Source: Catajapyx aquilonaris (Eukaryota). Taken from it: a stretch of 34,719 nucleotides of DNA. The DNA lies in assembly GCA_000934665.2 (NCBI GenBank), contig KZ539061.1:1-34719 (forward strand), read 5' to 3'. The notes under the pieces were generated by a model. The model was not told the origin of the DNA, made no database searches, and was given only the letters and a program-made list of their open reading frames with translations. Shown here piece after piece: positions 1,419 to 34,719 of the stretch. Numbering within the stretch: the stretch's first letter is position 1; every line of letters begins with the position of its first letter. The translations under genes and the position numbers were made by a program.

Positions 1419-19584
<18,166 letters not shown>

Positions 19585-20479
19585 GATTGTGAAGAACCCA
19601 GTGTACACTGGATACCGCAATATTTAAAAAAAAAAATTACGAGGTCAAAGCTGGTTCCATGGCTCAGGAGCACAACAAAGAGCCTACGCACGCCTCACAG
19701 GTAACCAAGCCTCTGCACAGGTGTTGCTGGCAGGTGAGATTGCTGACGTAGCCAGACAGAGACGGCCCCTTTCCTGTCCTCGCCAGCCAACCAGGCACAG
19801 TTTCCAATTCAAACTTGTAGGAGCCCCGGAAAGTGATGCAACTTTTTTTTTGCCTTCGTTTTAGGTGCCGTAGGAAGTAGTTTCTTTTATTGACAGAAAA
19901 GGCGGTTCACATTCTTGCGGTTTTGCCACTGAATAATATTATTTAAATGGGAAAGTGCTTGGGCGTCGATCAAGACTTTCGCATTGATTGTCAACACTGA
20001 AAGGCAGAAATATTGGCTTTAAATCTGTATATGTACACAATAGAAGGCACTGAAAATACCACATAATGCAGAACACAAGGTGTCAAAATGGTCTTATATG
20101 AACTCTCTCGTTTTAGGCGTAATAATGAACACTTCAGATATCAAGTTGAAAACCAGTTTTTATTTGCACAAAATGCACCGATGTTTTTGTGGTAAATTTT
20201 TTTTAATGCAATTTAATACATCATTCTGAGTAGTTGGACCAATGATAATTTTTGGAACGCTCAAAAATGGTCTAAATGCCATATTCAAATGTGCGACTCG
20301 AATGATCCGTAAAGCGAGCGGGCTATTTGCAGTTTTGTGTACAACTGACTAGCAAGTGAGAAAAATGAATGAGGTTAGAGAGACGAGGAATTATTGCAAA
20401 ATGATGCCAGAAAGATTACAGCATAAAGTAAATAGACAAGAAAAAACGATAAAGATGAGGAAAGTGTATGAAGATGAAA

Positions 20480-21700
20480 GTATTTCAAGAGGAATAATGT
20501 TGCTGGTACACAATTAGGATCAAACGGAAGGAAAGCAGTTGCACAAAGTGTTGAGTCATAGTAAATAGTGAAAGGTGAAAGAACAGTGAAGAGACGATAT
20601 TGTGTGAAGGAAGATGTGGCGTTTTGGTTGGACTAGGAAAATAATATGTTATGTATGAATATGTCTTCATGCCATAAGAGAAAATCCAAAGAAATGACAA
20701 AAAAGAAGATTATGTCAACAGTATTGTATTATTACATCCATACGATGACGTGAAAGTAACGTTCATATTTTGATCAAGTTGAACATGTTTTGAAAGGACG
20801 TTCATGTTCGTAATGAGAGAGATAGAGACAGCAGAAAAGTTAGATGAAATGTAAGCAACGAGATATCGAGCCTATAGGCCGTAATTTTCCAATAATTATA
20901 AATGTAATCATGCGAATGCGACAGGAGTAGAGAGAAAATCCAGATTTTCAAAACATAAGGCATGAAATTTAGTATGCTATAAAAGGTGAGCACTGGGATA
21001 AGAGTGATAAAAGTTCCAAATCAGGCATGAAACCATGGTGACACTGATTGTAGCAAACCAGAGCCCACAGCAAACAGATATGAGAATTACGGACATGCTA
21101 CCTAAAAGGTGTACAATCTAACTGCACACTAAATGCAGACTACATACGTGGATGTGTTAGGAACGAGGAAAAGATCCATAAAAGATACAAGTAATCAGAG
21201 GAAAGTAAACTTGCCGATAAGAACAGTAATAGAGCATAAGTGGAGTAGTTTGCATGTACAGAGATAGAACAGTAATGAGAATTCATGCTGTAATAGATTC
21301 GGAGAGAAATATAGAGAAAGCTTATATATTTACCAAGTGAATAAAAATAGCTAAACCATTGCAAGAAATTGTGACAAAATTCTTGTAAACAGCCAAATGA
21401 TGCGCATGACTAATAATACAATGTAAGGTACTGAGAAATAATATGGAATATTTGGAATTATGTGTGGTTAAAATAATAGAGTTTCTTCGTGGGGAAACAT
21501 GCCAGAATACCCGACTATGCTAATGATTATCAAATGTATGCAGTGAATGTGCGAACTACAGTTGACCATAAACGAACTGAAGTTTTTAAATTGTGCATAA
21601 GAATCAAGTAAGTGAATAAAATAGGCTGAAACCACATGCTCCCTTGAAACATGTCAAAATGCAGAATTATAGGATAAGTAATATGTAAGAAAATTTCTAT
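20480..21700 (-). mobile_element. Highly decayed LINE (CR1/L2/Jockey-like) ORF2 relic
   Basis: Collinear degenerate motifs across frameshifts on the minus strand: QGSMWFQPILFTYLI...SVRL (cf. QGSxLGPLLFLIYI...RLFADD), SHAHHLAV (cf. KHLGV), LQWFSY (cf. LSWxxHI), LSLYMQTTPLMLYYCS (cf. LYKxxVRPxLEYCS), FPSV...NCVPATLF (cf. SFFPxxxxLWNxLP). May extend to about 22200. Confidence 0.55.
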
Positions 21701-23751
21701 TTCGCCAATAAATATTAGCCACCGAATGTGCATTCCAAGGCAAAAAGAGAGAAACGAAATTGGTGTAATATGTTCTAGAATAATTGGGAAGTTTACACAA
21801 AACCGATCAGTAGTTTGATTGAATATACAATGCCTGTTACTCTCGCATAATGAGCATGTAGGGCGATTCCTTGACCTATTGCCAGACCAAAATGCGCTAC
21901 AATGGGAAGCATTATACAGAAGACTGCGTCACGGCGCCATGCGGCTGCAATTAAATATGGGTGACGTCACCCTTGTGATTTAGAAATAATATCCTGCTGG
22001 TTAGATCAGCCGGATACCATTGACAATCGGAGGGTGGCCTGACCAGCAGGATATCATAGGTCGCCATCAAAACTTGATTTACTCTGCACGTCGTAATGAT
22101 GCAAGCCAACGAATTATGCGAAGTATTTTGGTCTTGGTCAAGGTAATAGTCCAATCTGTCCCTTACACAGGAGTAACAGCAGCACGTATAGGCATGCAAA
22201 TGTAGAAAAGTATCAGATTCAAGACAGACTGACAACAAAGGCAGTTAGTTAAATTCCTAGAAGCGTGTGTTTCATACCGGTACAAAAATCTCAAAAGTAA
22301 CGCTAATCGGTTGCTGACAAGATGTTACCATGCGAGATACAAAGGGTCATTATAACGCAGTTGAGAACATCAGCCGAAGATTGAAAAAAGAAGAGGAAAA
22401 TTCAACACCCGTGCAATACAATATACAATATCAAATATGAGTGAGGAAACATGTTAAACATTTCACACGGTTAGTGCGTGATCATTAGACGAAGGGACAC
22501 TTCATGGAGAAGAAAAGAATGAAGTAGACTAGTAGAGTTTAAGGCTTCCTGAAGTCCATTAAAATGTACTCATGCACGGCTGACAGAAGGAATGCAGTGT
22601 GTCTCACAAATAAATGCTAGTGCCATTAGTCTACTGTGCGCGCTACTTTTACATTGCTTTAAAAACAACAGAAAAGTTAAAACCATTATTTTGAAATGTC
22701 ACAATTAAATCATATAAGAAAATATTAGCTTTGTCATAGCTTTGTCATACCATAATTGCGGCCTACTGAACTATAAATGGATTACATATTTTCAAACCTT
22801 TTTGGAATATTATGCAAAAGCACATTTAAAATTCCTAATCAATACTCATAGTAAAATAGATAAAGAAGAACAGTGGAATATAGAAAAGTGCATGCTGGTT
22901 TTTACAATCCATGTGTAGAGCCCAGGTGAAAACAGCCAAAGAAATCATTAGCTTTGTCATAATGTAGTTGATAGTTGAATGTAAAATACAGGCAAAAATA
23001 GATCAGGTGAAATTGTTTAAAAACCTTTACACTGTAGATTGGGCTAAACGTAAGCCTTGTAAGAGGTAGAAAGATGGCAAGTACATCAGAATGTCAAGTT
23101 AGGCATGCGAACTATCAGAATTTTTTTGCAATACGAAAATTAGTACTGTAATGAGAATGTAAAGTGTGCCAGAGTGATTTTCAGTTTGATATAATTAAGT
23201 ACACATGCATTGTTATAGACTTAGTTTTTTCATACGGTACGTCATATAGTTTAGGAACATTAGCATAGTTTTATACAGGTTGAACTAAAGCCATATATCA
23301 AATAGCCCTTACGGACTATGTATACTCATGTACTACATGTTTAAAGAGTTTAGCCAGATGTATCCTGGCGCAATGCTATAGTATCATGATTCGACCAAGA
23401 TAAAGTACTGTACGCGGGGGAAAAAACCCTCAAAAGTGCTGATGGTTGCAAAGCTTCAGGATACGTATGGCCAAAACTTTTGGTGACAAACAGTACAATT
23501 AAGACTAACAAGTAAGTTCTGCAGTAGGCACAAGTGGCACTAAATATTAATTGTTATACTGTACATAGATGTTGCTACTTTGAGAGCATAGCACTTGAAA
23601 GGAAACATTTGCAGCTAATGAAAATCACATCGTGAGTATTAACATTTTAACATTGCACATAAACTGAACACAGCCATTTAAGGGGGGTGGAAGAATGCAA
23701 GGCACATGCTTGCCTGCGAAAAGGGTGGAAAGTTAAGAAACATAGTTAACC

Positions 23752-23881
23752 TACAGTAGGCCCAACCTAAATCTGCATGGCTTTATTTTTTTTTCAGTCT
23801 TCCTGGTCATACCATCCTGGCCATCATACAAGGACTGGAAAAACCCATAAAGCTGTGCAGATTTAGTTTGGGTCGACTATA
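23752..23881. mobile_element. pogo/Tigger-type MITE (about 126 bp plus TA duplication)
   Basis: Arms of about 48 bp: TACAGTAGGCCCAACCTAAATCTGCATGGCTTTAT... vs revcomp TATAGTCGACCCAAACTAAATCTGCACAGCTTTAT.... CAGT-type terminus with TA at both ends. Confidence 0.8.
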
Positions 23882-25503
23882 CTGCATTCTAGTCATAAGA
23901 AGATGTAGAGGTAATAAGTTTGGCAGATTTTTACATTACTGGTACTGATTCAATAAATCCAGAAGATATGTTTTATAAGGAAACATTCATATGCTAAATA
24001 CCCATTTGTTAATCATTTCTGTAGTGTGAAGTGAAGTATCCAGCAGGCGAAAATGGTAACTTACTCCATAGGAAGAAGCGATGAAAGACAATTTGGAGAT
24101 TAGATGATGATGGAAAGGCCCATCTGTTCGGAAGAGTATGAGACAGTGGCATAGTGTAAGAACATGTCGTGACATGAGGTATTTCTAATATATTTGTACA
24201 GCTTCCTCAAACCAATCGTATGTAACAAAAATACTGTAAATCTTCCGCAGTGAGAAAGAAATTTGAACATGCTATTAGTCCGGCGTAAAAGTTGAGGAAC
24301 AGAGATCAAGAAAAGTCATGAAAGACGGTGTTAATGACTAGTTGTAGCATTTTTTGTTACATCCTTAAACGACGCATAAGTCACTGAAGCCACTATGATG
24401 TGAAAAATGAGTTTTTTTTTACAATAATGTAAGTGAACATATTCAAATGAATAAGAAATCATGCGGGAGATCATGTAAGAAAAGAACAAGGTAAAAGAAT
24501 TTTAAAGAATATAGAGAAACTGAGCTTAGGTACAAAAAACCTGCAACGTTTTGAAGAACACTGGATGGGTTTCGTAATTTTGACCACCAGAATAATGAGT
24601 AAACTGTCAGTTATTGGTTTGGATCTAATTGCACCATGTGATAGCGCTTATTTCCCAAAGAAACTATATAATTTTCAATTTGTGTATCTTATATGAACAG
24701 TTGAACACCCTGGCAGGCTGTTGGTGCAGCCGGATCCTAATTTCTGAGGGCAGAATATTAATGTTTTTGGTCATTAAAAATTCTGGGTGTGGTTGTAAAC
24801 TATAGGCACAAAATAATTGTCATTGATATTTGCACTCTCTGTAAAAACAGTACCAAAATTAATGCCGTCGATAAAAGTGAAGTGAATTATCGTATTATTA
24901 ATATTTTGCCCTTTTACGTACTGTATATTCGCACATTAGTTATCCAGTTCAGTTCTGTTTCAATAGGCGTTACATGTCAAAACAAATTCTGAGAAACAGG
25001 AAAACATCCCACAACAACAAAAAATTGCTTGGGGGTGTATAGACAACAGAGACTTGTGAAGTAGTAACAGAAATTTCCTAAATATACTGTAGATAAGGAT
25101 ATTTGGCCATAGAAAATGTGAAGCTGCAGCAGCGGGTTGAGTGAAGTAATGCGTCGTTATCCGAAAAATAGACGAGATAGCTGCCAGAGTTGCTTCTTCA
25201 TAGTCTGAGGCAATGGTGACGGGTCAATATTGGGCTGAAAAGTAAAATTAACGCATTAATATTAGCCAAAAGTAGGTGTGGTGAGAAGTATTTTTGTGTT
25301 TTACCTTATATGTAATATTAAAGGAACTTTAGATAGGCATCACTTCTTCCATGAGCAAAGATTTTGCTTATGCTCCTTACGCTGGAAACAAAAGTAATTG
25401 CAGAATGTAATCCATGTGTAAAATATAAGTCATAATATGAAATACAGAGTAATGTATAGACAATTCTGCACCTGTATGCCTGACATACGACAACAAACCC
25501 GTG

Positions 25504-25576
25504 TGCTTCCGCTGGGAATCGAACCCAGGTCCACATTCAATGTGATATGTGTGCTCTGCCACTAAGCTACGGAAGT
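25504..25576 (-). ncRNA. Second tRNA-like cloverleaf, related to 2031-2100
   Basis: ACTTCCG TA GCTT AGTGGCA GAGC A CACAT ATCACATTGA ATGTG GAC CTGGG TTCGATT CCCAG CGGAAGC A. A and B boxes intact, stems paired except the first acceptor pair (A-C), anticodon loop 10 nt. Confidence 0.75.
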
Positions 25577-28470
25577 TATGGTGGGTCTGGTGACGATAGG
25601 CACACTATTTCAAATGTGTATGATTGTTATGATTCATCCTCAGCTGTGTTGAGTACATAAGAGTACTGACCCAGCAATGGCCAGTGACTAAGACTAGTGT
25701 CCAACCACTGTTGATCTGAACTTCCCAAGGCCATTTTCTCGGCTAATTTCTGCATATTTCCTGCATCAAAGGTTACAATCTAGACTGACCTCACTCTTTT
25801 TCTTTGCCATCGAGTTCAGTCTATTGTAAAGTCCAAACGGGCCATTTCACAATAGACACCTTGAATCGGGGCCGCTATTCTCGACGACCTTCTCTTTGTA
25901 ACGGAGTAATTTCGAGGTGAACAAGAGAAGGGAGATATACGGTATGGTGTTGTACTAGGAGTCAGGGAAAAGGGAGGTGTGGTTTAGGGGTAAATGCATG
26001 CTTGGCCGCCCTTCACGTCGACCACACCCTGGTAACTAGATTACTCGAACAAATGTTTGCCACTACTTGTAATTTTAGACACGATTTCTTATATAGAGGA
26101 CTGAAAAATGATTTTATCTCATAAGAAGCCCCCCTCATATTTTTTGAAGAGTGATTTATCAGACACTATGTGCATTTACGTAACATAGTATATTACGTGC
26201 TCAAAGTTTTTTAACCTTTCGCATGCACCCTGAGGCGGTATTTTCAAATATTCGCCACATTTCCGGTATTCAGATCATTTTTATGACTATACGCATTGTA
26301 TGATAATACTTGCTTTTGGTCGGTTGAACCTAGCGAAAAATGAGACTTTTTACAGCCTTTGTGCAATTAAGCTACCGCAACGAAAAAAAAAAACTGTTTT
26401 CTTAAACGCCCAGCCCTTAAAATCGTCGAACTTTCACTCACATACGTACAGTACCGCTTCCGTATCGAGAGTGCCTTTGAAAAGTAGCGTACACTGCAGG
26501 AAATGCCTTGCACTAGGCAACCAGTTGTGGAAACCGAAGTTCCTTAATTTAAATATATTCTATGAGTCAGAATTGACTGTACTGTGCGATGCAGGTTCCA
26601 CTGACACATATAAATACCCGCAGCCTGTGGCACGAGAAACAGCAAATTGTTCACCTGCAGAACCGCTATCTGACGGGAGACACGTTGTAAAATTACGTCC
26701 ATGTTTTCAAGTAAAACAATCATGATATCAATAAGTTAGATTACCGCATCATGCCATATTTAAGGGCTTTATTTCTAAGATGAATTATATTCGAAATATT
26801 GTGTATGTCCCTGTGTAAATTGCACTTTTCACGGCCTATTTGTAATAAAATTATTAATAGTTATTTTTAAGTGCGATTTTCCGCAAGGAGTTTATCGTAT
26901 AGATCACCTGGTATAGAGGAATTGTACCAGTCGGTGTGGCGGTTTATTGCCTATTAATGATGATTTGGGTTAGTTATGCAACTCCGTGTTCACTGATAGA
27001 CATACACTCCATGGTACGTGCTGTCACAACGAGAGAAAGGAAGTCTACTTTCCTTACAAGGGCAGTTCGAAACGAGAGCAAAATGTAACTACTTTTTCGC
27101 CTACACAATGCTATCAGAAAGGGGTGTGAACAGCCATGTCGTCGTAAAATATAGAGCATTTCCGTAAGTACTGCCAAGGGAAAGCATTGGCTATTTTGAA
27201 CAGAGCACAAAATGTACTGTACAGTCAAGGAACCGAGGTTACCGATAATACCTAAAATCACACGTTCACCTGATGCGATTGAAATAATAATGAGATGCCC
27301 ACATCATTCTGGGTATCACTAACCTAGTGATGCTATTATTACATTCAAAAACATCAGTAAATAAGGCATATCATGCCGACATTTAACCTTTCAGAAGGAT
27401 AAGACAATAAAATAAGTTAAGGAATAAGTAACCTCTACTACAGGTGCTGTGAGAGATTTTAAGCATTCACTGGGGTTCAACAGTGTACGACGAGATTTTG
27501 CTACTCCTAAATATTATTGCTATGGTGTGTACAGTAGGCCTACACGAAGCTGTGTGAAATGCTACGTATTTTTAGTTCAGAAAAAATGACATTGTCGACT
27601 AGCAGCACATCCTCTGTTTCACTTTTATTGAAATTATTACAAAAACAGCAAACAAACAAAAACCATAACGTGGCTTAAAATATGTAGTCAGCGATGAAGG
27701 GGGCACAAATTATGGTTTAAAATAACCCACACAAACATGCGACTTTCAATGACATAGGTCGCGTATTGTAGCACATTAGGCCTATAGCCCTAATCAAAAC
27801 AAACTTTGTAGGTATTGAATAATCTTAACCTTGAAATATAACTAACATCTCGTTAACCGCAAGCAAGCAACCACAATCTAAAAATAACACTAACCTTTAC
27901 ATATGGAAATAGTCAATCTGGTGTTCCGGAGCTAAAATTAGTCACAGTAATCTTTTTGTGTATCTGTGGTAATTTGCATAATTTGTACATGCAGCTGCTG
28001 GAGTTGCTAAACTTGTGCACGCCTAATGATGTTTTTATAGCACCAGGCATAACTAATACCATACACTATATGACAACAACTATTCCCATTAATGACTTCC
28101 AATAGCTACAACCATTATACTTGTAATGAAAACAATTTAAAGCCATATTTTTTTAATACTTATTATACAATATCCACTGGTCGAATTTTCCGGGTAGCAA
28201 ATAAAGAATTTGTCCTCAGACTTATATATATTTTTTTGAAAAAAATAATTCATTGCACCCAATGCAGTCGTGCAATTAACGTCCAGTATTTTTCATGCCC
28301 ACCAGCAGTGTTATGTTTGTGGCACATCCTAAATTCCGGTATATACCTCATGAATCAGGGGGAAAAAAACACATCTCACACATTCATACAACCTTCAAGA
28401 AAAGTCAAAACATATTTGTTTTCAACTAACTTGCAACAAGGTGGCTTATTTGAAAACAAAAATATGCAAC

Positions 28471-32390: not shown

Positions 32391-34284
32391 AATAGATTTA
32401 GTGTGTGAACTATAAGTACTCTTCAGTCTTATCTATAAAAGCCTCCAATTATTGTTTCTGTATTATTGTTAAGACAACAAGTATCGACCCGGAGTATGTT
32501 GGGTGTGTTACAGGACTTTTCACAGCCCGAGGTGAAAATGTTGATGTCAGCCAAGGCTCAAGGTAACGGGAAAAGGGTGGGGAGGTTAACAGGCCGTACT
32601 TTTTTTATATTTTCTATCATTCCACTCGGGATACCCCGCGACACAATATCTGGAGCTATTCCATATATGTTATCTCTTACGAACAAACTCTTGTTGTATC
32701 GCGGCAGATAAGTTAAAGAAAGTGAGACGAAGAGTCGGCAGAAGAAAGCTGCTGTAGGTGACAACCTTCAGTCAGGAAAGCAGCACGTGGCGAGATATAT
32801 ACCAGATATATCTTGAGTTAAATAAAATGTGCCATTAGTTGAGTCAGTCTATTGGATACCTAGTAATAGAAATGTTGTGGCATATCAGGAGTACCTTCAT
32901 TAATATTTAGACTTAAGCATCTCATTCTGGAAGGGTTTTGAGAACAAGCTGTCACCCTGAGGAATAAAGAAAGAGGCATGAAGCGAAACATGTAGTCCGA
33001 GTGCAGGTGATAGAAAATTGCCTTTTCGTCCTCGTTGACCAGAAGGAACGAAACGCAACGAATCAGAAAGTGAACGTCACAACCTGCTCACTCCGTTCAC
33101 TTACTCGGTTGCGATCACTCGGATTACAGCAGTTTATGCGAAACAAGAAAGGGAAAATGATGTACAGTACAAGTGGGTCACTTGTGGCAGTAGTTCGCTG
33201 GGTGCATGGGCAGACACTTGTATAGGAGAAAGGTATTTCCTTGCTCCTTCCCAGCAATGTCATTTTGGGCAAAACCTGAATACTGCAGTAGAAGTCAAGT
33301 CAAGTTTCACATACAGTACATTACATCAACGTGCATGCGGGTGCAGTGTATAGTCATGGATTTGCCATCTGTATAGGATGTCATTAACGAAGCCAATATT
33401 TTTGTACTGGCACAGGTCTGGGGGAAAGCGAGAAATATCATTGAGAAATTACTTTTGAGGAGTCTATAAGCATTGGGCAGCTGCCCATTATGTGAAAAAC
33501 TGTCAGATTTTCTGCTTGCATGTTACATAGCAAGCATGGTTGTGAGAAGGTGAACAAAGACATGTTCCTTACCCAGAGAAATGTTCATAAATATTTCTAT
33601 TTATTAACTTACTCTCTTCATCTGCAATGGTACTGTACAGTACATTCAAGTCAAGACATTTCCAGGAATATATATGGACTGCAGTAAAGTTCATTGTATG
33701 CAGTGTATCTTTTTGCATAAGCACCCCGAGTCAGACTGCATATATGCCCAGGGTAGTCAACGTGGAAATGATAGTACTGATATTAATATTGCTGGTAGGC
33801 TATACGTATATCCACGAGTTTTTCACTCGTGGGTCGGATTAAATTGTTCACTTGTCTACACCAATTCCAATTGATTGAAGTACGTAGATCCCGGCTCTTC
33901 TTATTGAAAAAAAACGTATTATGTATTTTCTTTGGAATCTGTTCTATAGTTTAATGACAAATTTAAACATTGTTTTCACCAATTTTTTATGCAGATGTTC
34001 AGTCCCAGTTTCCAGTATGATGAAATCCTGCTATATGTTAAATCGTCAGGATTAAAATTCATGTATTAAGAAATTCTGGAGCTTCTCTATCTCTGTGGTG
34101 TGCCTGGTTGCCCATATCGGCAGCGAGTACGTCGTCGCTGTCAATAAAAACAATGTTTCCCTTTATATCTAGGCAGCTGTTACTTACAGTACATAGCGAT
34201 GTTTGTGTCAATAAAATCCTTTTCCGGGATCCATAAAATGCATTAAAACCTTTTCTAAGGGCCAGTTTCACCGAGCTCGATATA

Positions 34285-34360
34285 TGATAAAACCAGGTTT
34301 CTTTAGGAAAATCCATACAAATATATATAGGGATTTTCCTAAAGAACCCTGGTTTTATCA
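34285..34360. repeat. Near-perfect 30-bp inverted repeat (hairpin), probably the core of a MITE
   Basis: TGATAAAACCAGGTTTCTTTAGGAAAATCC (34285-34314) vs GGATTTTCCTAAAGAACCCTGGTTTTATCA (34331-34360) match at 29/30 with a 16-nt spacer. Confidence 0.9.
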
Positions 34361-34719
34361 TTAGTCCAGTGCAAATAGCATATTACCTGGACATTTAGAG
34401 TTACTAAACGAAATTTGGGATACATATTCAATTGGCCCTCCTGAACAATATCTGAAAGTTCCCAAGTGATCCCTCATGGGATTACCCTGCAATCCTGCAA
34501 AAACTGTAACATACCTGCAGTTTTTCTTGAACCCGCATAGAAAGTGAACGCATGGACTTGGACACTCATTTCTTTTTACAAATTACTTGTTTTGACGTGT
34601 GTTGTCATTTAGAAAAAAGTGCCAACGATTTTGATATAAACTTAATTATGTTAACCTGCAAAACCTATTCATTACCTCGAATTTTTCTGGAACGCACGCA
34701 GGAATGGGACGGGTTGCCT

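What the first reader, a model, noticed from the sequence alone, without database searches (positions are those of the whole stretch)
25504..25576. Two dispersed tRNA-like RNAs with eight compensatory base-pair swaps but no canonical anticodon loop
Seen: this element and 2031-2100 share near-identical loops (TA, A[A/G]TGGCA, 3-nt GAC variable region, TTCGATT), while their stems differ by 8 double substitutions that each preserve pairing (3 in the acceptor stem, 1 in D, 3 in the anticodon stem, 1 in T). One further pair goes U-G to U-A and only one pair is broken. The anticodon loops are 8 and 10 nt and the flanks show no shared SINE body. Known: neutrally decaying tRNA pseudogenes and SINE heads mostly accumulate pair-breaking changes, and decoding tRNAs normally have 7-nt anticodon loops. 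Inference: a family of non-decoding, structure-selected tRNA mimics (Pol III ncRNA, processing signal or mobile-element module). Caveat: all swaps are transitions, so CpG decay on both arms, or two SINE families with separately selected masters, could explain part of the pattern.
Basis: partly seen in the sequence, partly recalled or inferred. Interest (0 to 1): 0.75.

Follow-up and report, generated by a model that had tools for sequence, protein, structure and literature searches.

The report
Two tRNA-shaped genes with misfit anticodon arms
Two related tRNA-shaped genes in an arthropod genome keep a perfect cloverleaf through matched base-pair swaps but have anticodon arms of the wrong size, so they are probably tRNA offshoots that no longer read codons, though whether they still do anything is not shown.

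Summary
Both elements lie on the minus strand (A 2030-2100, B 25504-25576) and pass Rfam's tRNA threshold (50.1 and 44.5 bits, cut-off 29). Of 21 stem pairs, 11 are identical, 8 differ by double compensatory changes, 1 by a single change that keeps pairing, and 1 is broken.

Eight double swaps is ordinary for two tRNAs: 1643 of 1817 canonical pairs reach it. What is unusual is that all eight are transitions (0 of 1817 pairs) and that 16 of the 18 stem differences fall as pairs (P about 2e-4). CpG context explains 1 of 8. So A and B are kin that diverged under selection for pairing.

Both share a 3-nt variable region and have anticodon loops of 8 and 10 nt. They are not SINE heads: flanks are unique, there is no body, tail, duplication or encoded CCA, and only about 32 other contigs per run share B's T-arm half. 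A sits in a short intron of USH1G/Sans on the gene's strand. B reads as Val-CAC with 3 extra bases.

Best reading (0.42): members of a small, lineage-specific family of tRNA-derived, non-decoding RNA polymerase III (Pol III) genes. Dead tRNA copies remain a serious rival. No expression data and no full family census were available.

The parts
25504..25576 (-). Element B: a 73-nt tRNA-shaped gene. It has a 7-bp acceptor stem (pair 1:72 is an A.C mismatch), a 4-bp D stem, a 5-bp anticodon stem with a 10-nt loop, a 3-nt variable region, a 5-bp T stem and discriminator A.
   Evidence: Rfam RF00005 scores 44.5 bits. ARAGORN calls it. The minimum-energy fold is a cloverleaf, z-score -1.84. Parse.
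2030..2100 (-). Element A: a 71-nt tRNA-shaped gene. All 21 stem pairs are intact (two are G.U). It has an 8-nt anticodon loop, a 3-nt variable region and discriminator U. Its total length is canonical, but the 3' strand of the anticodon stem is slid by one base.
   Evidence: Rfam RF00005 scores 50.1 bits with a one-column deletion in the variable region. The minimum-energy fold has z-score -2.75. ARAGORN calls it. Parse. Length comparison with canonical tRNAs.
25531..25550 (-). B's anticodon arm: 5 bp plus a 10-nt loop. It reads as A-U-CAC-A, then three extra bases (UUG), then A. That is a Val-CAC loop with 3 bases inserted at position 37/38.
   Evidence: ARAGORN with introns allowed returns tRNA-Val(cac), intron length 3. 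Fold.
2057..2074 (-). A's anticodon arm: 5 bp plus an 8-nt loop (UUGCUUAA). It can also fold as 7 bp plus a GCUU tetraloop. No intron model fits.
   Evidence: ARAGORN: '?(Ser|Lys)(gctt)'.
25528..25530 (-). B's 3-nt variable region, GAC.
   Evidence: ViennaRNA and ARAGORN agree on this register. Rfam's alignment of B instead skips most of the arm.
2054..2056 (-). A's 3-nt variable region, GAC.
   Evidence: Searches agree.
25559..25569 (-). B's A-box-like stretch (tRNA positions 8-18). It fits the Pol III A-box consensus, which I recall from memory.
   Evidence: Sequence printed. The consensus comes from no call.
25515..25525 (-). B's B box, GGTTCGATTCC.
   Evidence: Regular-expression match.
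2083..2093 (-). A's A-box-like stretch. It has two departures from the recalled consensus.
   Evidence: Sequence printed. The consensus comes from no call.
2041..2051 (-). A's B box, GGTTCGATTCC.
2007..2010 (-). A run of four T 20 nt downstream of A. This is a possible Pol III terminator.
   Evidence: sequence.
25420..25423 (-). The first run of four T downstream of B, at +81. No closer terminator exists.
   Evidence: sequence.
1935..2151 (-). The host intron of the USH1G/Sans homologue that contains A on the same strand. The donor is CAG|GTATAA at 2151. The best acceptor puts the next exon at 1934, with alternatives at 1958 and 1979.
   Evidence: tblastn of six arthropod USH1G proteins. Splice-model scan: in the three best models A is wholly intronic and the intron is 172-217 nt.

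Best explanation
A and B are two diverged members of a small, lineage-specific family of tRNA-derived genes in an arthropod genome. The family's common ancestor had already lost the canonical geometry of the anticodon arm, so the members most likely no longer decode. Selection has still kept the rest of the cloverleaf.

Proposed working (inferred, not shown):
- Each unit is transcribed by RNA polymerase III from its internal A and B boxes. A could also be released from the USH1G intron.
- The intact acceptor/T-arm helix lets RNase P and RNase Z trim it to a tRNA-shaped RNA of about 71-73 nt.
- That RNA cannot present a normal anticodon. It therefore acts, if at all, through its shape, for example by binding tRNA-handling proteins or yielding fragments, as mascRNA does in vertebrates.

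Shown: the cloverleaf, the kinship, the structure-preserving divergence, the shared non-canonical geometry, the low copy number and the unique flanks.

Inferred: transcription, processing, lack of decoding and any function.
For: 1. Both pass the Rfam tRNA model and fold as cloverleaves. The core nucleotides U8, A14, G18, G19 and the T loop are present.

2. Kinship plus structural selection.
- All 18 stem differences are transitions, and 16 of them form 8 compensated pairs.
- 0 of 1817 pairs of canonical tRNAs of different isotype show 8 transition doubles.
- Random placement of the 18 differences gives P about 2e-4. Independent-site drift predicts about 3.9 doubles and 10.3 singles, against 8 and 2 observed.
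- Only 1 of 8 swaps lies in a CpG on both arms.

3. Stems differ at 18 of 42 nt. The non-anticodon loops differ at 2 of 21 (Fisher p 0.009).

4. Shared non-canonical geometry.
- The variable region is 3 nt in both.
- Class I tRNAs have 4 or 5 nt (PMC9976931 and PMC7609411, passages read). 0 of 67 canonical tRNAs in my null set had 3.
- The loops are 8 and 10 nt and are unrelated in sequence.
- A shared odd trait followed by 8 compensated swaps means that pairing was selected after the geometry became non-canonical.

5. The family is small.
- 33, 32 and 32 contigs were laid in runs X1-X3, one of them the locus itself. Each lies at about single-copy depth and matches only the T-arm/3'-acceptor half.
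- Summed depth there is about 39-47 times the flank depth. Few copies stay alike into the anticodon arm.

6. There is no retroposition mark and no shared flank.

7. Both B boxes are perfect, and A has a T4 run at +20.
Against: - No RNA evidence at all. No RNA run is listed as holding the stretch.
- Only two full members were seen. The other copies are known only from contig pieces and noisy 30-nt loose ends, so their anticodon arms could not be parsed. Canonical relatives with 7-nt loops may exist.
- Many B-like contigs stop at the element, as assemblies do at multi-copy identical genes such as real tRNA families. That would make B a diverged orphan of an ordinary family.
- B has a broken 1:72 pair and no T4 run within 80 nt.
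- A departs from the recalled A-box consensus at two places and has a non-standard 15:48 pair.
- Insertion-bearing tRNA-like loci without an assignable anticodon are by default read as pseudogenes (PMC9858662 and PMC4090602, passages read).
- The null set for the transition test is prokaryotic, ascertained with A/B motifs and internally related.
Confidence: 0.42

Rival explanations
1. Dead copies of ordinary decoding tRNA genes. A and B each descend from a different functional tRNA gene of the host. The compensated differences arose while the parents were working tRNAs. Each copy was then disabled by small indels in the anticodon arm and is now drifting.
For: Pairs of working tRNAs of different isotype routinely differ by 8 or more compensated pairs and share D and T loops. 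The same loop motifs occur in canonical Thr, Met and Asn tRNAs. B reads as Val-CAC plus 3 inserted bases. B has a broken 1:72 pair and no nearby terminator. Reviews treat short insertions in single copies, and loci without an assignable anticodon, as pseudogenes, and note that pseudogenes run longer (PMC4090602 and PMC9858662, passages read). B-like contigs that break at the element hint at identical multi-copy relatives.
Against: Both copies would need the same rare loss of one variable-region base, plus an insertion in the loop, independently. Otherwise the parents would themselves be non-canonical. 20 of 21 stem pairs are intact in B and 21 of 21 in A, despite 32% divergence between them. 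The all-transition skeleton (0 of 1817 in the null) points to a closer common origin than two unrelated isotypes. Both tRNA-like genes in the window have the defect in the same arm and nowhere else.
Confidence: 0.28
2. Inert copies from a low-copy mobile or otherwise dispersing tRNA-derived family, SINE-like but without a recognisable body. Only the source genes are under selection for RNA structure. A and B come from two source lineages.
For: Tens of dispersed copies share the T-arm half. The internal Pol III boxes are the best-kept parts. Several B-like copies seem to share 6-10 nt beyond the 3' end (alignment starts at 25494-25498).
Against: There is no body, tail, target-site duplication or encoded CCA. 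Flank similarity is at chance level. B's flanks are single-copy. About 32 further contigs per run is far below typical SINE numbers. A and B lie 23.5 kb apart on the same strand, which fits local gene duplication as well.
Confidence: 0.13
3. Working decoders with unusual processing or geometry. B would be a tRNA-Val(CAC) gene with a 3-nt intron at 37/38. A would be a tRNA with an 8-nt anticodon loop that reads codons unconventionally.
For: ARAGORN's intron model gives B a regular loop (U33, CAC, A37, A38) and discriminator A. In the fold, two anticodon bases pair with the extra bases, as in pre-tRNA anticodon-intron helices. Excised 3-nt tRNA introns exist in a cryptophyte nucleomorph (PMC4090602, passage read). 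An 8-nt-loop tRNA decodes in yeast mitochondria (PMC3113583 abstract; PMC7609411 passage).
Against: Canonical eukaryotic tRNA introns are 6-133 nt (PMC4090602, passage read). From general knowledge, the eukaryotic endonuclease needs a bulged 3' splice site that 3 nt cannot form. A fits no intron model. Even after removal of UUG the variable region is 3 nt, outside class I (PMC9976931). Position 1:72 is mismatched in B.
Confidence: 0.09
4. DNA-level elements. The units are kept as TFIIIC/Pol III binding sites, as chromatin boundaries or regulators of the host gene, and not for their RNA.
For: The A- and B-box regions are the most conserved parts. A lies inside a gene.
Against: Selection on protein binding to DNA does not predict compensated changes on the two arms of four helices.
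Confidence: 0.05

Closest known systems
tRNA pseudogenes or 'undetermined-anticodon' tRNA-like loci of eukaryotic genomes
   Same: They are tRNA-model hits without an assignable anticodon, longer than the canonical arm allows, and dispersed as single units (definition in PMC9858662, passage read).
   Different: Here 41 of 42 stem pairs across the two copies are intact. The two copies differ by compensated changes only, and they share a non-canonical variable region. This is not the pattern of free decay.
mascRNA / MEN-beta tRNA-like small RNAs (vertebrate MALAT1 and NEAT1 3' ends)
   Same: [quoted passage not shown] A likewise lies within a Pol II transcription unit on the sense strand.
   Different: No Rfam family other than tRNA matches either element on the tRNA-sense strand, even at E up to 5. 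That Rfam holds a mascRNA model is my recollection. A and B have full D arms and intact Pol III boxes. They are multi-copy, and there is no upstream triple-helix or A-rich context. Processing is untested.
tRNA-derived SINEs
   Same: A tRNA-related unit with internal A and B boxes, present in several dispersed copies.
   Different: There is no tRNA-unrelated body, no tail and no target-site duplication. The flanks are single-copy, and there are tens of copies, not thousands.
tRNA-Pyl and mammalian mt-tRNA-Ser(UCN) architecture
   Same: A three-nucleotide variable region together with a lengthened anticodon helix (PMC7609411, passages read). A can form 6-7 bp.
   Different: [quoted passage not shown] A's arm is 18 nt and B's is 20 nt, and both have the usual two bases (UA) at positions 8-9.
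Decoding tRNAs with 8-nt anticodon loops (yeast mt-tRNA-Thr(UAG), frameshift suppressors)
   Same: A has an 8-nt loop in an otherwise regular cloverleaf (PMC3113583 abstract; PMC7609411 passage).
   Different: Those are organellar or bacterial, with normal variable regions. B's loop is 10 nt. There is no evidence of decoding here.
Very short tRNA introns of cryptophyte nucleomorphs
   Same: B's extra 3 nt could be read as a 3-nt intron. Excision of 3-nt introns has been shown there (PMC4090602, passage read).
   Different: The nucleomorph cases described in that passage lie at non-canonical positions, in a very different genome. In eukaryotic nuclear genomes the same review gives 6-133 nt for introns at the canonical position.

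Membership tests
tRNA (Rfam RF00005; canonical decoding class I tRNA) | Cloverleaf with 7/4/5/5-bp stems that scores above the family threshold | tested here: met
   50.1 and 44.5 bits against a cut-off of 29. 21 of 21 pairs are intact in A and 20 of 21 in B.
tRNA (Rfam RF00005; canonical decoding class I tRNA) | Conserved core nucleotides (U8, A14, G18-G19, T-loop UUCGAUU type) | tested here: met
   Read from the parse. A has A15 opposite C48, which is non-standard.
tRNA (Rfam RF00005; canonical decoding class I tRNA) | 7-nt anticodon loop | tested here: not met
   The loops are 8 nt in A and 10 nt in B. The 7-nt norm is stated in PMC7609411 (passage read).
tRNA (Rfam RF00005; canonical decoding class I tRNA) | Variable region of 4 or 5 nt | tested here: not met
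   It is 3 nt (GAC) in both (also for A). The norm is from PMC9976931 and PMC7609411. 0 of 67 control tRNAs had 3 nt.
tRNA (Rfam RF00005; canonical decoding class I tRNA) | Aminoacylation and decoding | not testable with these tools
   This needs charged-tRNA sequencing or biochemistry.
tRNA-derived SINE | tRNA-related head followed by a shared body and a tail | tested here: not met
   The downstream flanks do not align. Flank similarity is at chance. There are no A-runs. Other copies diverge within 6-10 nt of B's 3' end.
tRNA-derived SINE | Target-site duplications | tested here: not met
   The longest shared flank word is 5-6 nt, reached by 459 and 192 of 500 shuffles.
tRNA-derived SINE | High copy number | tested here: not met
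   33, 32 and 32 contigs were laid per run, the locus itself included, each at about single-copy depth. Contig depth is only a rough guide.
Intron-containing eukaryotic tRNA gene | Insert at the canonical 37/38 position that leaves a regular 7-nt loop | tested here: inconclusive
   Met for B (Val-CAC). Not met for A, where no intron model fits.
Intron-containing eukaryotic tRNA gene | Intron length in the known nuclear range (6-133 nt), with a bulged 3' splice site | tested here: not met
   The insert is 3 nt. The range is from PMC4090602 (passage read).
Intron-containing eukaryotic tRNA gene | Removal of the insert in mature RNA | not testable with these tools
   No RNA run holds the locus.
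mascRNA-type tRNA-like RNA | Match to the curated family model | tested here: not met
   On the tRNA-sense strand only RF00005 matches at these loci, at the gathering threshold and at E up to 5. That Rfam holds a mascRNA model is recalled.
mascRNA-type tRNA-like RNA | Cloverleaf without a conserved anticodon loop, cut out of a longer Pol II transcript by RNase P and RNase Z | tested here: inconclusive
   The shape criterion is met. A lies in a sense-strand intron. B has no known host transcript. Processing was not tested.
[quoted passage not shown] | [quoted passage not shown] | tested here: not met
   The variable region is 3 nt, which is met. The arm is 18 nt in A and 20 nt in B instead of 19, and two bases lie at positions 8-9. 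Features are from PMC7609411.
Processed tRNA retro-pseudogene | Encoded CCA end and flanking duplications | tested here: not met
   The three bases after the discriminator are TGG in A and CAC in B, and there are no duplications.

The most novel reading that the evidence does not exclude
An arthropod lineage maintains a family of tens of Pol III-transcribed, tRNA-shaped RNAs that have given up decoding. They have a 3-nt variable region and an anticodon arm free to vary in length and sequence, while the acceptor, D and T arms are held by selection. This would be a multi-copy invertebrate counterpart of mascRNA-like tRNA mimics. The hypervariable arm might serve as a specificity module, and one member is nested in a conserved gene's intron.
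Probability: 0.25. Interest if true: 0.65.

Novelty: new variant of a known kind. Interest (0 to 1): 0.4.

Why it matters
If the family is alive, it would be a rare case of tRNA genes recruited as a gene family for a non-decoding role in an animal. The case would rest on sequence evolution (compensated stems, a freed anticodon arm) and not only on expression. It would also give a concrete set of loci for testing what tRNA-shaped RNAs do outside translation.

If the copies are dead, the case still has practical value. It shows that two 'pseudogene-like' tRNA hits can carry a strong compensatory signal inherited from their source genes. Pairwise covariation between dispersed tRNA-like loci should therefore not be read as proof of present function.

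Either way, annotators should not list these two loci as decoding tRNAs.

Tried and rejected
- No whole genome is held for this window, so no family census, R-scape-type covariation test or orthologue check was possible.
- Sequencing runs: no RNA holder is listed. The four holders are DNA contig sets from one sample that may be the source of the assembly. Nothing can be said about expression.
- Run X5 (kind unknown) gave two high-depth contigs with a B-like T-arm half. Whether that reflects expression or repeat copy number cannot be told.
- Metagenome scan for the shared backbone: 34 loci, all carrying canonical-anticodon tRNA genes, most of them tRNA arrays. The matched gene is tRNA-Thr-GGU in 30 of 34, and Met, Pyl-CTA, Asn and Asn in the other 4. 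None is a relative of the odd architecture. I used them only as a control set.
- Scans for the A/B-specific 3' half: 0 hits in viral contigs. There was 1 hit in prokaryote genomes, an unrelated Dehalococcoidia locus.
- Apparent shared upstream motif from the MAFFT alignment: rejected as chance. For A it is simply the 5' end of the host intron.
- 'Extended hairpin with a 3-4-nt loop' in the minimum-energy folds: not used as evidence. Loops that begin with U and end with A pair this way in energy models for ordinary tRNAs too (my reasoning, not tested).
- Permissive Rfam scan of the whole window: no further tRNA-like copy. A sub-threshold 'Plastid-ycf2' hit lies on the opposite strand of B (31.2 bits against a cut-off of 65.7). 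I read it as a generic antisense-tRNA resemblance.
- Literature:
  - The exact backbone strings occur in 0 papers of the searchable library.
  - Searches for arthropod tRNA-like families and for enlarged anticodon loops gave only mitochondrial or bacterial 8-nt-loop tRNAs, reviews and tool papers.
  - Helenus LTR elements with tRNA-like parts (PMC10886601, passages read) need LTR context, which is absent here.
- Earlier notes of this scan: nothing on this genome or these sequences.
- Resemblance of B's acceptor stem to animal tRNA-Val, and of the backbone to tRNA-Gly/Thr types: recalled only. I did not test it because no eukaryotic tRNA set is on hand, and I do not use it as evidence.
- The closest canonical tRNAs in my control set are Thr-GGU (79% to A, 73% to B). 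This is an ascertainment effect of the search pattern.

Full report
WHAT IS THERE

Both elements lie on the minus strand: A at 2030-2100 (71 nt) and B at 25504-25576 (73 nt).
- Rfam's tRNA model scores them at 50.1 and 44.5 bits against a gathering score of 29. They are the only two matches above threshold in the 34.7-kb window.
- A permissive scan (E up to 5) adds no further tRNA-like copy.
- ARAGORN calls both 'tRNA-???' with four-base anticodons.
- Each folds on its own into a cloverleaf, with z-scores of -2.75 and -1.84 against shuffles.

Of 21 stem pairs:
- 11 are identical.
- 8 differ on both sides and stay paired: 3 in the acceptor stem, 1 in D, 3 in the anticodon stem, 1 in T.
- 1 goes from U-G to U-A.
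- 1 is broken (A1.C72 in B).

Positions 8-9, the D loop, position 26, the 3-nt variable region and the T loop differ at 2 of 21 positions. The anticodon loops are 8 and 10 nt and are unrelated in sequence.

IS IT MORE THAN CHANCE?

I built a null from 67 canonical class I tRNAs taken from tRNA arrays fetched and parsed.
- Among 1817 pairs of different isotype the mean number of double compensated differences is 10.1, and 1643 pairs have 8 or more.
- The same loop motifs stand in ordinary tRNA-Thr, Met and Asn genes.

Two features do stand out.
- All eight double swaps are transition/transition, so the purine/pyrimidine skeleton of all four stems is the same in A and B. In the null only 30% of double swaps are of this kind, and no pair reaches eight (0 of 1817, maximum 7).
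- Sixteen of the 18 stem differences fall as both-sided pairs. Random placement of 18 changes among 42 stem sites gives that with P about 2e-4. Independent-site drift predicts about 3.9 doubles and 10.3 singles, against 8 and 2 observed.

Caveat on the null: these are prokaryote-type tRNAs. They were found with A/B's own motifs, and many are close relatives of each other.

Conclusion: A and B are true kin, and the lineage joining them evolved under selection for pairing. The transition route through G.U intermediates is the classical path for this.

GEOMETRY

ViennaRNA and ARAGORN place the anticodon helix directly before GAC in both elements, which leaves a 3-nt variable region. Rfam's alignment shows the same deletion for A, but for B it skips most of the arm.
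- Class I tRNAs have 4 or 5 nt there (PMC9976931 and PMC7609411, passages read). None of my 67 control tRNAs had 3.
- A has exactly the canonical overall length. Its 3' stem strand is slid by one base, giving an 8-nt loop and a 3-nt variable region instead of 7 and 4.
- With introns allowed, ARAGORN reads B as tRNA-Val(CAC) with a 3-nt insert at the canonical 37/38 site. A fits no intron model.
- A 3-nt variable region with a lengthened anticodon stem is known in tRNA-Pyl and in mammalian mt-tRNA-Ser(UCN) (PMC7609411). Those keep a 7-nt loop and a 19-nt arm, whereas A has 18 nt and B has 20 nt.

The odd variable region is shared, and the eight compensated swaps came on top of it. The simplest history is therefore an ancestor that was already non-canonical and was nevertheless kept paired. 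The alternative is two independent losses of the same base.

SURROUNDINGS

- The host is an arthropod. The 275-aa ORF at 4069-4896 (minus strand) is an exon of a USH1G/Sans homologue. Its best matches are cockroach, horseshoe crab and stick insect, at 54% identity or less.
- tblastn maps five coding blocks on the minus strand between 7497 and 1422.
- A splice-model scan puts a CAG|GTATAA donor at 2151 and the next exon at 1934, with alternatives at 1958 and 1979. A therefore lies wholly inside an intron of 172-217 nt, on the gene's own strand.
- B lies in DNA with no Pfam-recognisable coding sequence. 58 ORFs of 75 aa or more between 5.2 and 34.4 kb gave 0 families.
- Both B boxes are perfect. 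B's A-box region fits the consensus as I recall it, and A's departs at two places.
- A has a T4 run 20 nt downstream. B's first T4 run is at +81.
- There are no target-site duplications, no A-tails and no encoded CCA. There is no flank similarity beyond chance at 60-200 nt.

COPY NUMBER

No genome is held. Four DNA contig sets from one sample, possibly the assembly's own source, hold the locus, and no RNA run is listed. I laid three of them, plus one run of another sample, on 25280-25800 at 80% likeness.
- The flanks sit at single-copy depth (25-35).
- The T arm and 3' acceptor half (about 25494-25539) collects 33, 32 and 32 contigs per run, the locus itself among them. Each is at roughly single-copy depth.
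- Together they sum to about 39-47 times the flank depth. In X1, besides the locus itself, 6 contigs are 95-99% alike, 11 are 90-95% and 15 are under 90%.
- About a dozen copy-equivalents stay alike into the 3' strand of the anticodon stem, and about one stays alike beyond it.
- The loose ends show a D arm of the A/B type. Downstream they often show T runs.
- The loose ends are noisy 30-nt consensuses (agreement 0.57-0.88), and I could not parse the other copies' anticodon arms with confidence.
- Many contigs stop at the element, as assemblies do at repeated genes.

So this is a family of tens of copies, not thousands, with unique flanks. It is not a SINE.

Run X5 (kind unknown) has two contigs, at depth 2298 and 160, with a B-like T-arm half. 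This is unexplained.

INTERPRETATION

The robust part: A and B belong to a small tRNA-derived family with a shared non-canonical anticodon-arm and variable-region geometry, and pairing in all four stems was under selection along the lineage that joins them.

The open part is whether A and B themselves are alive.
- Non-decoding but structure-selected family, made by Pol III and trimmed by RNase P and RNase Z: 0.42.
- Dead copies of ordinary tRNAs: 0.28. This is the default reading of insertion-bearing tRNA-like loci (PMC4090602 and PMC9858662, passages read).
- Inert copies from a low-copy dispersing family with selected source genes: 0.13.
- Unusual decoders (3-nt intron, 8-nt loop): 0.09. Precedents are nucleomorph 3-nt introns and yeast mt-tRNA-Thr (PMC4090602, PMC7609411, PMC3113583). 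The nuclear intron range of 6-133 nt and the 3-nt variable region argue against it.
- DNA-level TFIIIC sites: 0.05. This does not explain the compensated changes.

COMPARISON WITH KNOWN SYSTEMS

The nearest functional analogue is mascRNA. It is a cloverleaf without a conserved anticodon loop, is processed by tRNA enzymes and is not charged (PMC9976931, passage read). These elements do not match any Rfam family other than tRNA on their own strand. They keep full D arms and Pol III boxes, and they are multi-copy.

They fail two defining features of decoding class I tRNAs (loop size, variable-region size). They fail all tested features of SINEs and of retro-pseudogenes.

VERDICT

Novelty: a new variant of a known kind (tRNA-derived, tRNA-shaped genes). 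Interest is moderate (0.4). It would rise if a genome-wide census shows a covarying family with a free anticodon arm, or if tRNA-seq shows products.

Noticed in passing
window 1422-7497 (minus strand): A USH1G/Sans (Usher 1G) homologue. Five coding blocks were mapped by tblastn: 7497-7348, 4875-4072, 2333-2152, about 1934-1745 and 1658-1422. The N-terminal block is up to 86% identical to insect and horseshoe-crab proteins, and the central block about 50%.
   Followed up: partly
window 34284-34361: A 39-nt inverted repeat with no spacer and 90% complementarity. It draws sub-threshold hits to two miRNA precursor models: mir-754 at 31.7 bits against a cut-off of 84, and MIR4208 at 29.7 against 140. 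It could be a hairpin RNA or a small palindromic repeat.
   Followed up: no
window 10899-11036: A compound (ATG)n(ATT)n microsatellite. It gives a His/Asn-run ORF on the minus strand.
   Followed up: no
window 20001-26000: A marked strand asymmetry. GC skew is +0.21 and AT skew +0.19 at 20-22 kb, still positive to 26 kb, while the rest of the window is near zero. B lies at its edge. The cause is unknown.
   Followed up: no
Read laying on window 25280-25800, run X5: In a run of another sample with the same species label (kind unknown), two contigs carry a B-like T-arm half with an A/B-type D arm: one of 1172 nt at depth 2298 and one of 2322 nt at depth 160. This is either strong expression of family members inside longer RNAs or a high-copy repeat.
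   Followed up: no
L035 182-230 (Dehalococcoidia MAG contig): Just upstream of a tRNA-Trp gene lies a 7-bp acceptor-like helix joined by about 16 nt to a regular T arm, with no D or anticodon arm. Neither ARAGORN nor Rfam calls it. It may be a tRNA-like minihelix or part of a larger RNA.
   Followed up: partly
L001-L034 (metagenome contigs): 29 of the 34 loci carry dense arrays of 4-9 tRNA genes within 471-845 nt. The recurring order is Gly-Gly-Thr-Thr-Thr-Ile-Met-Ala-Phe.
   Followed up: no
window, whole: CpG observed/expected is 0.70 for the window (GC 0.40) but 0.26 in A and 0.64 in B. This suggests some germline methylation in this arthropod.
   Followed up: no
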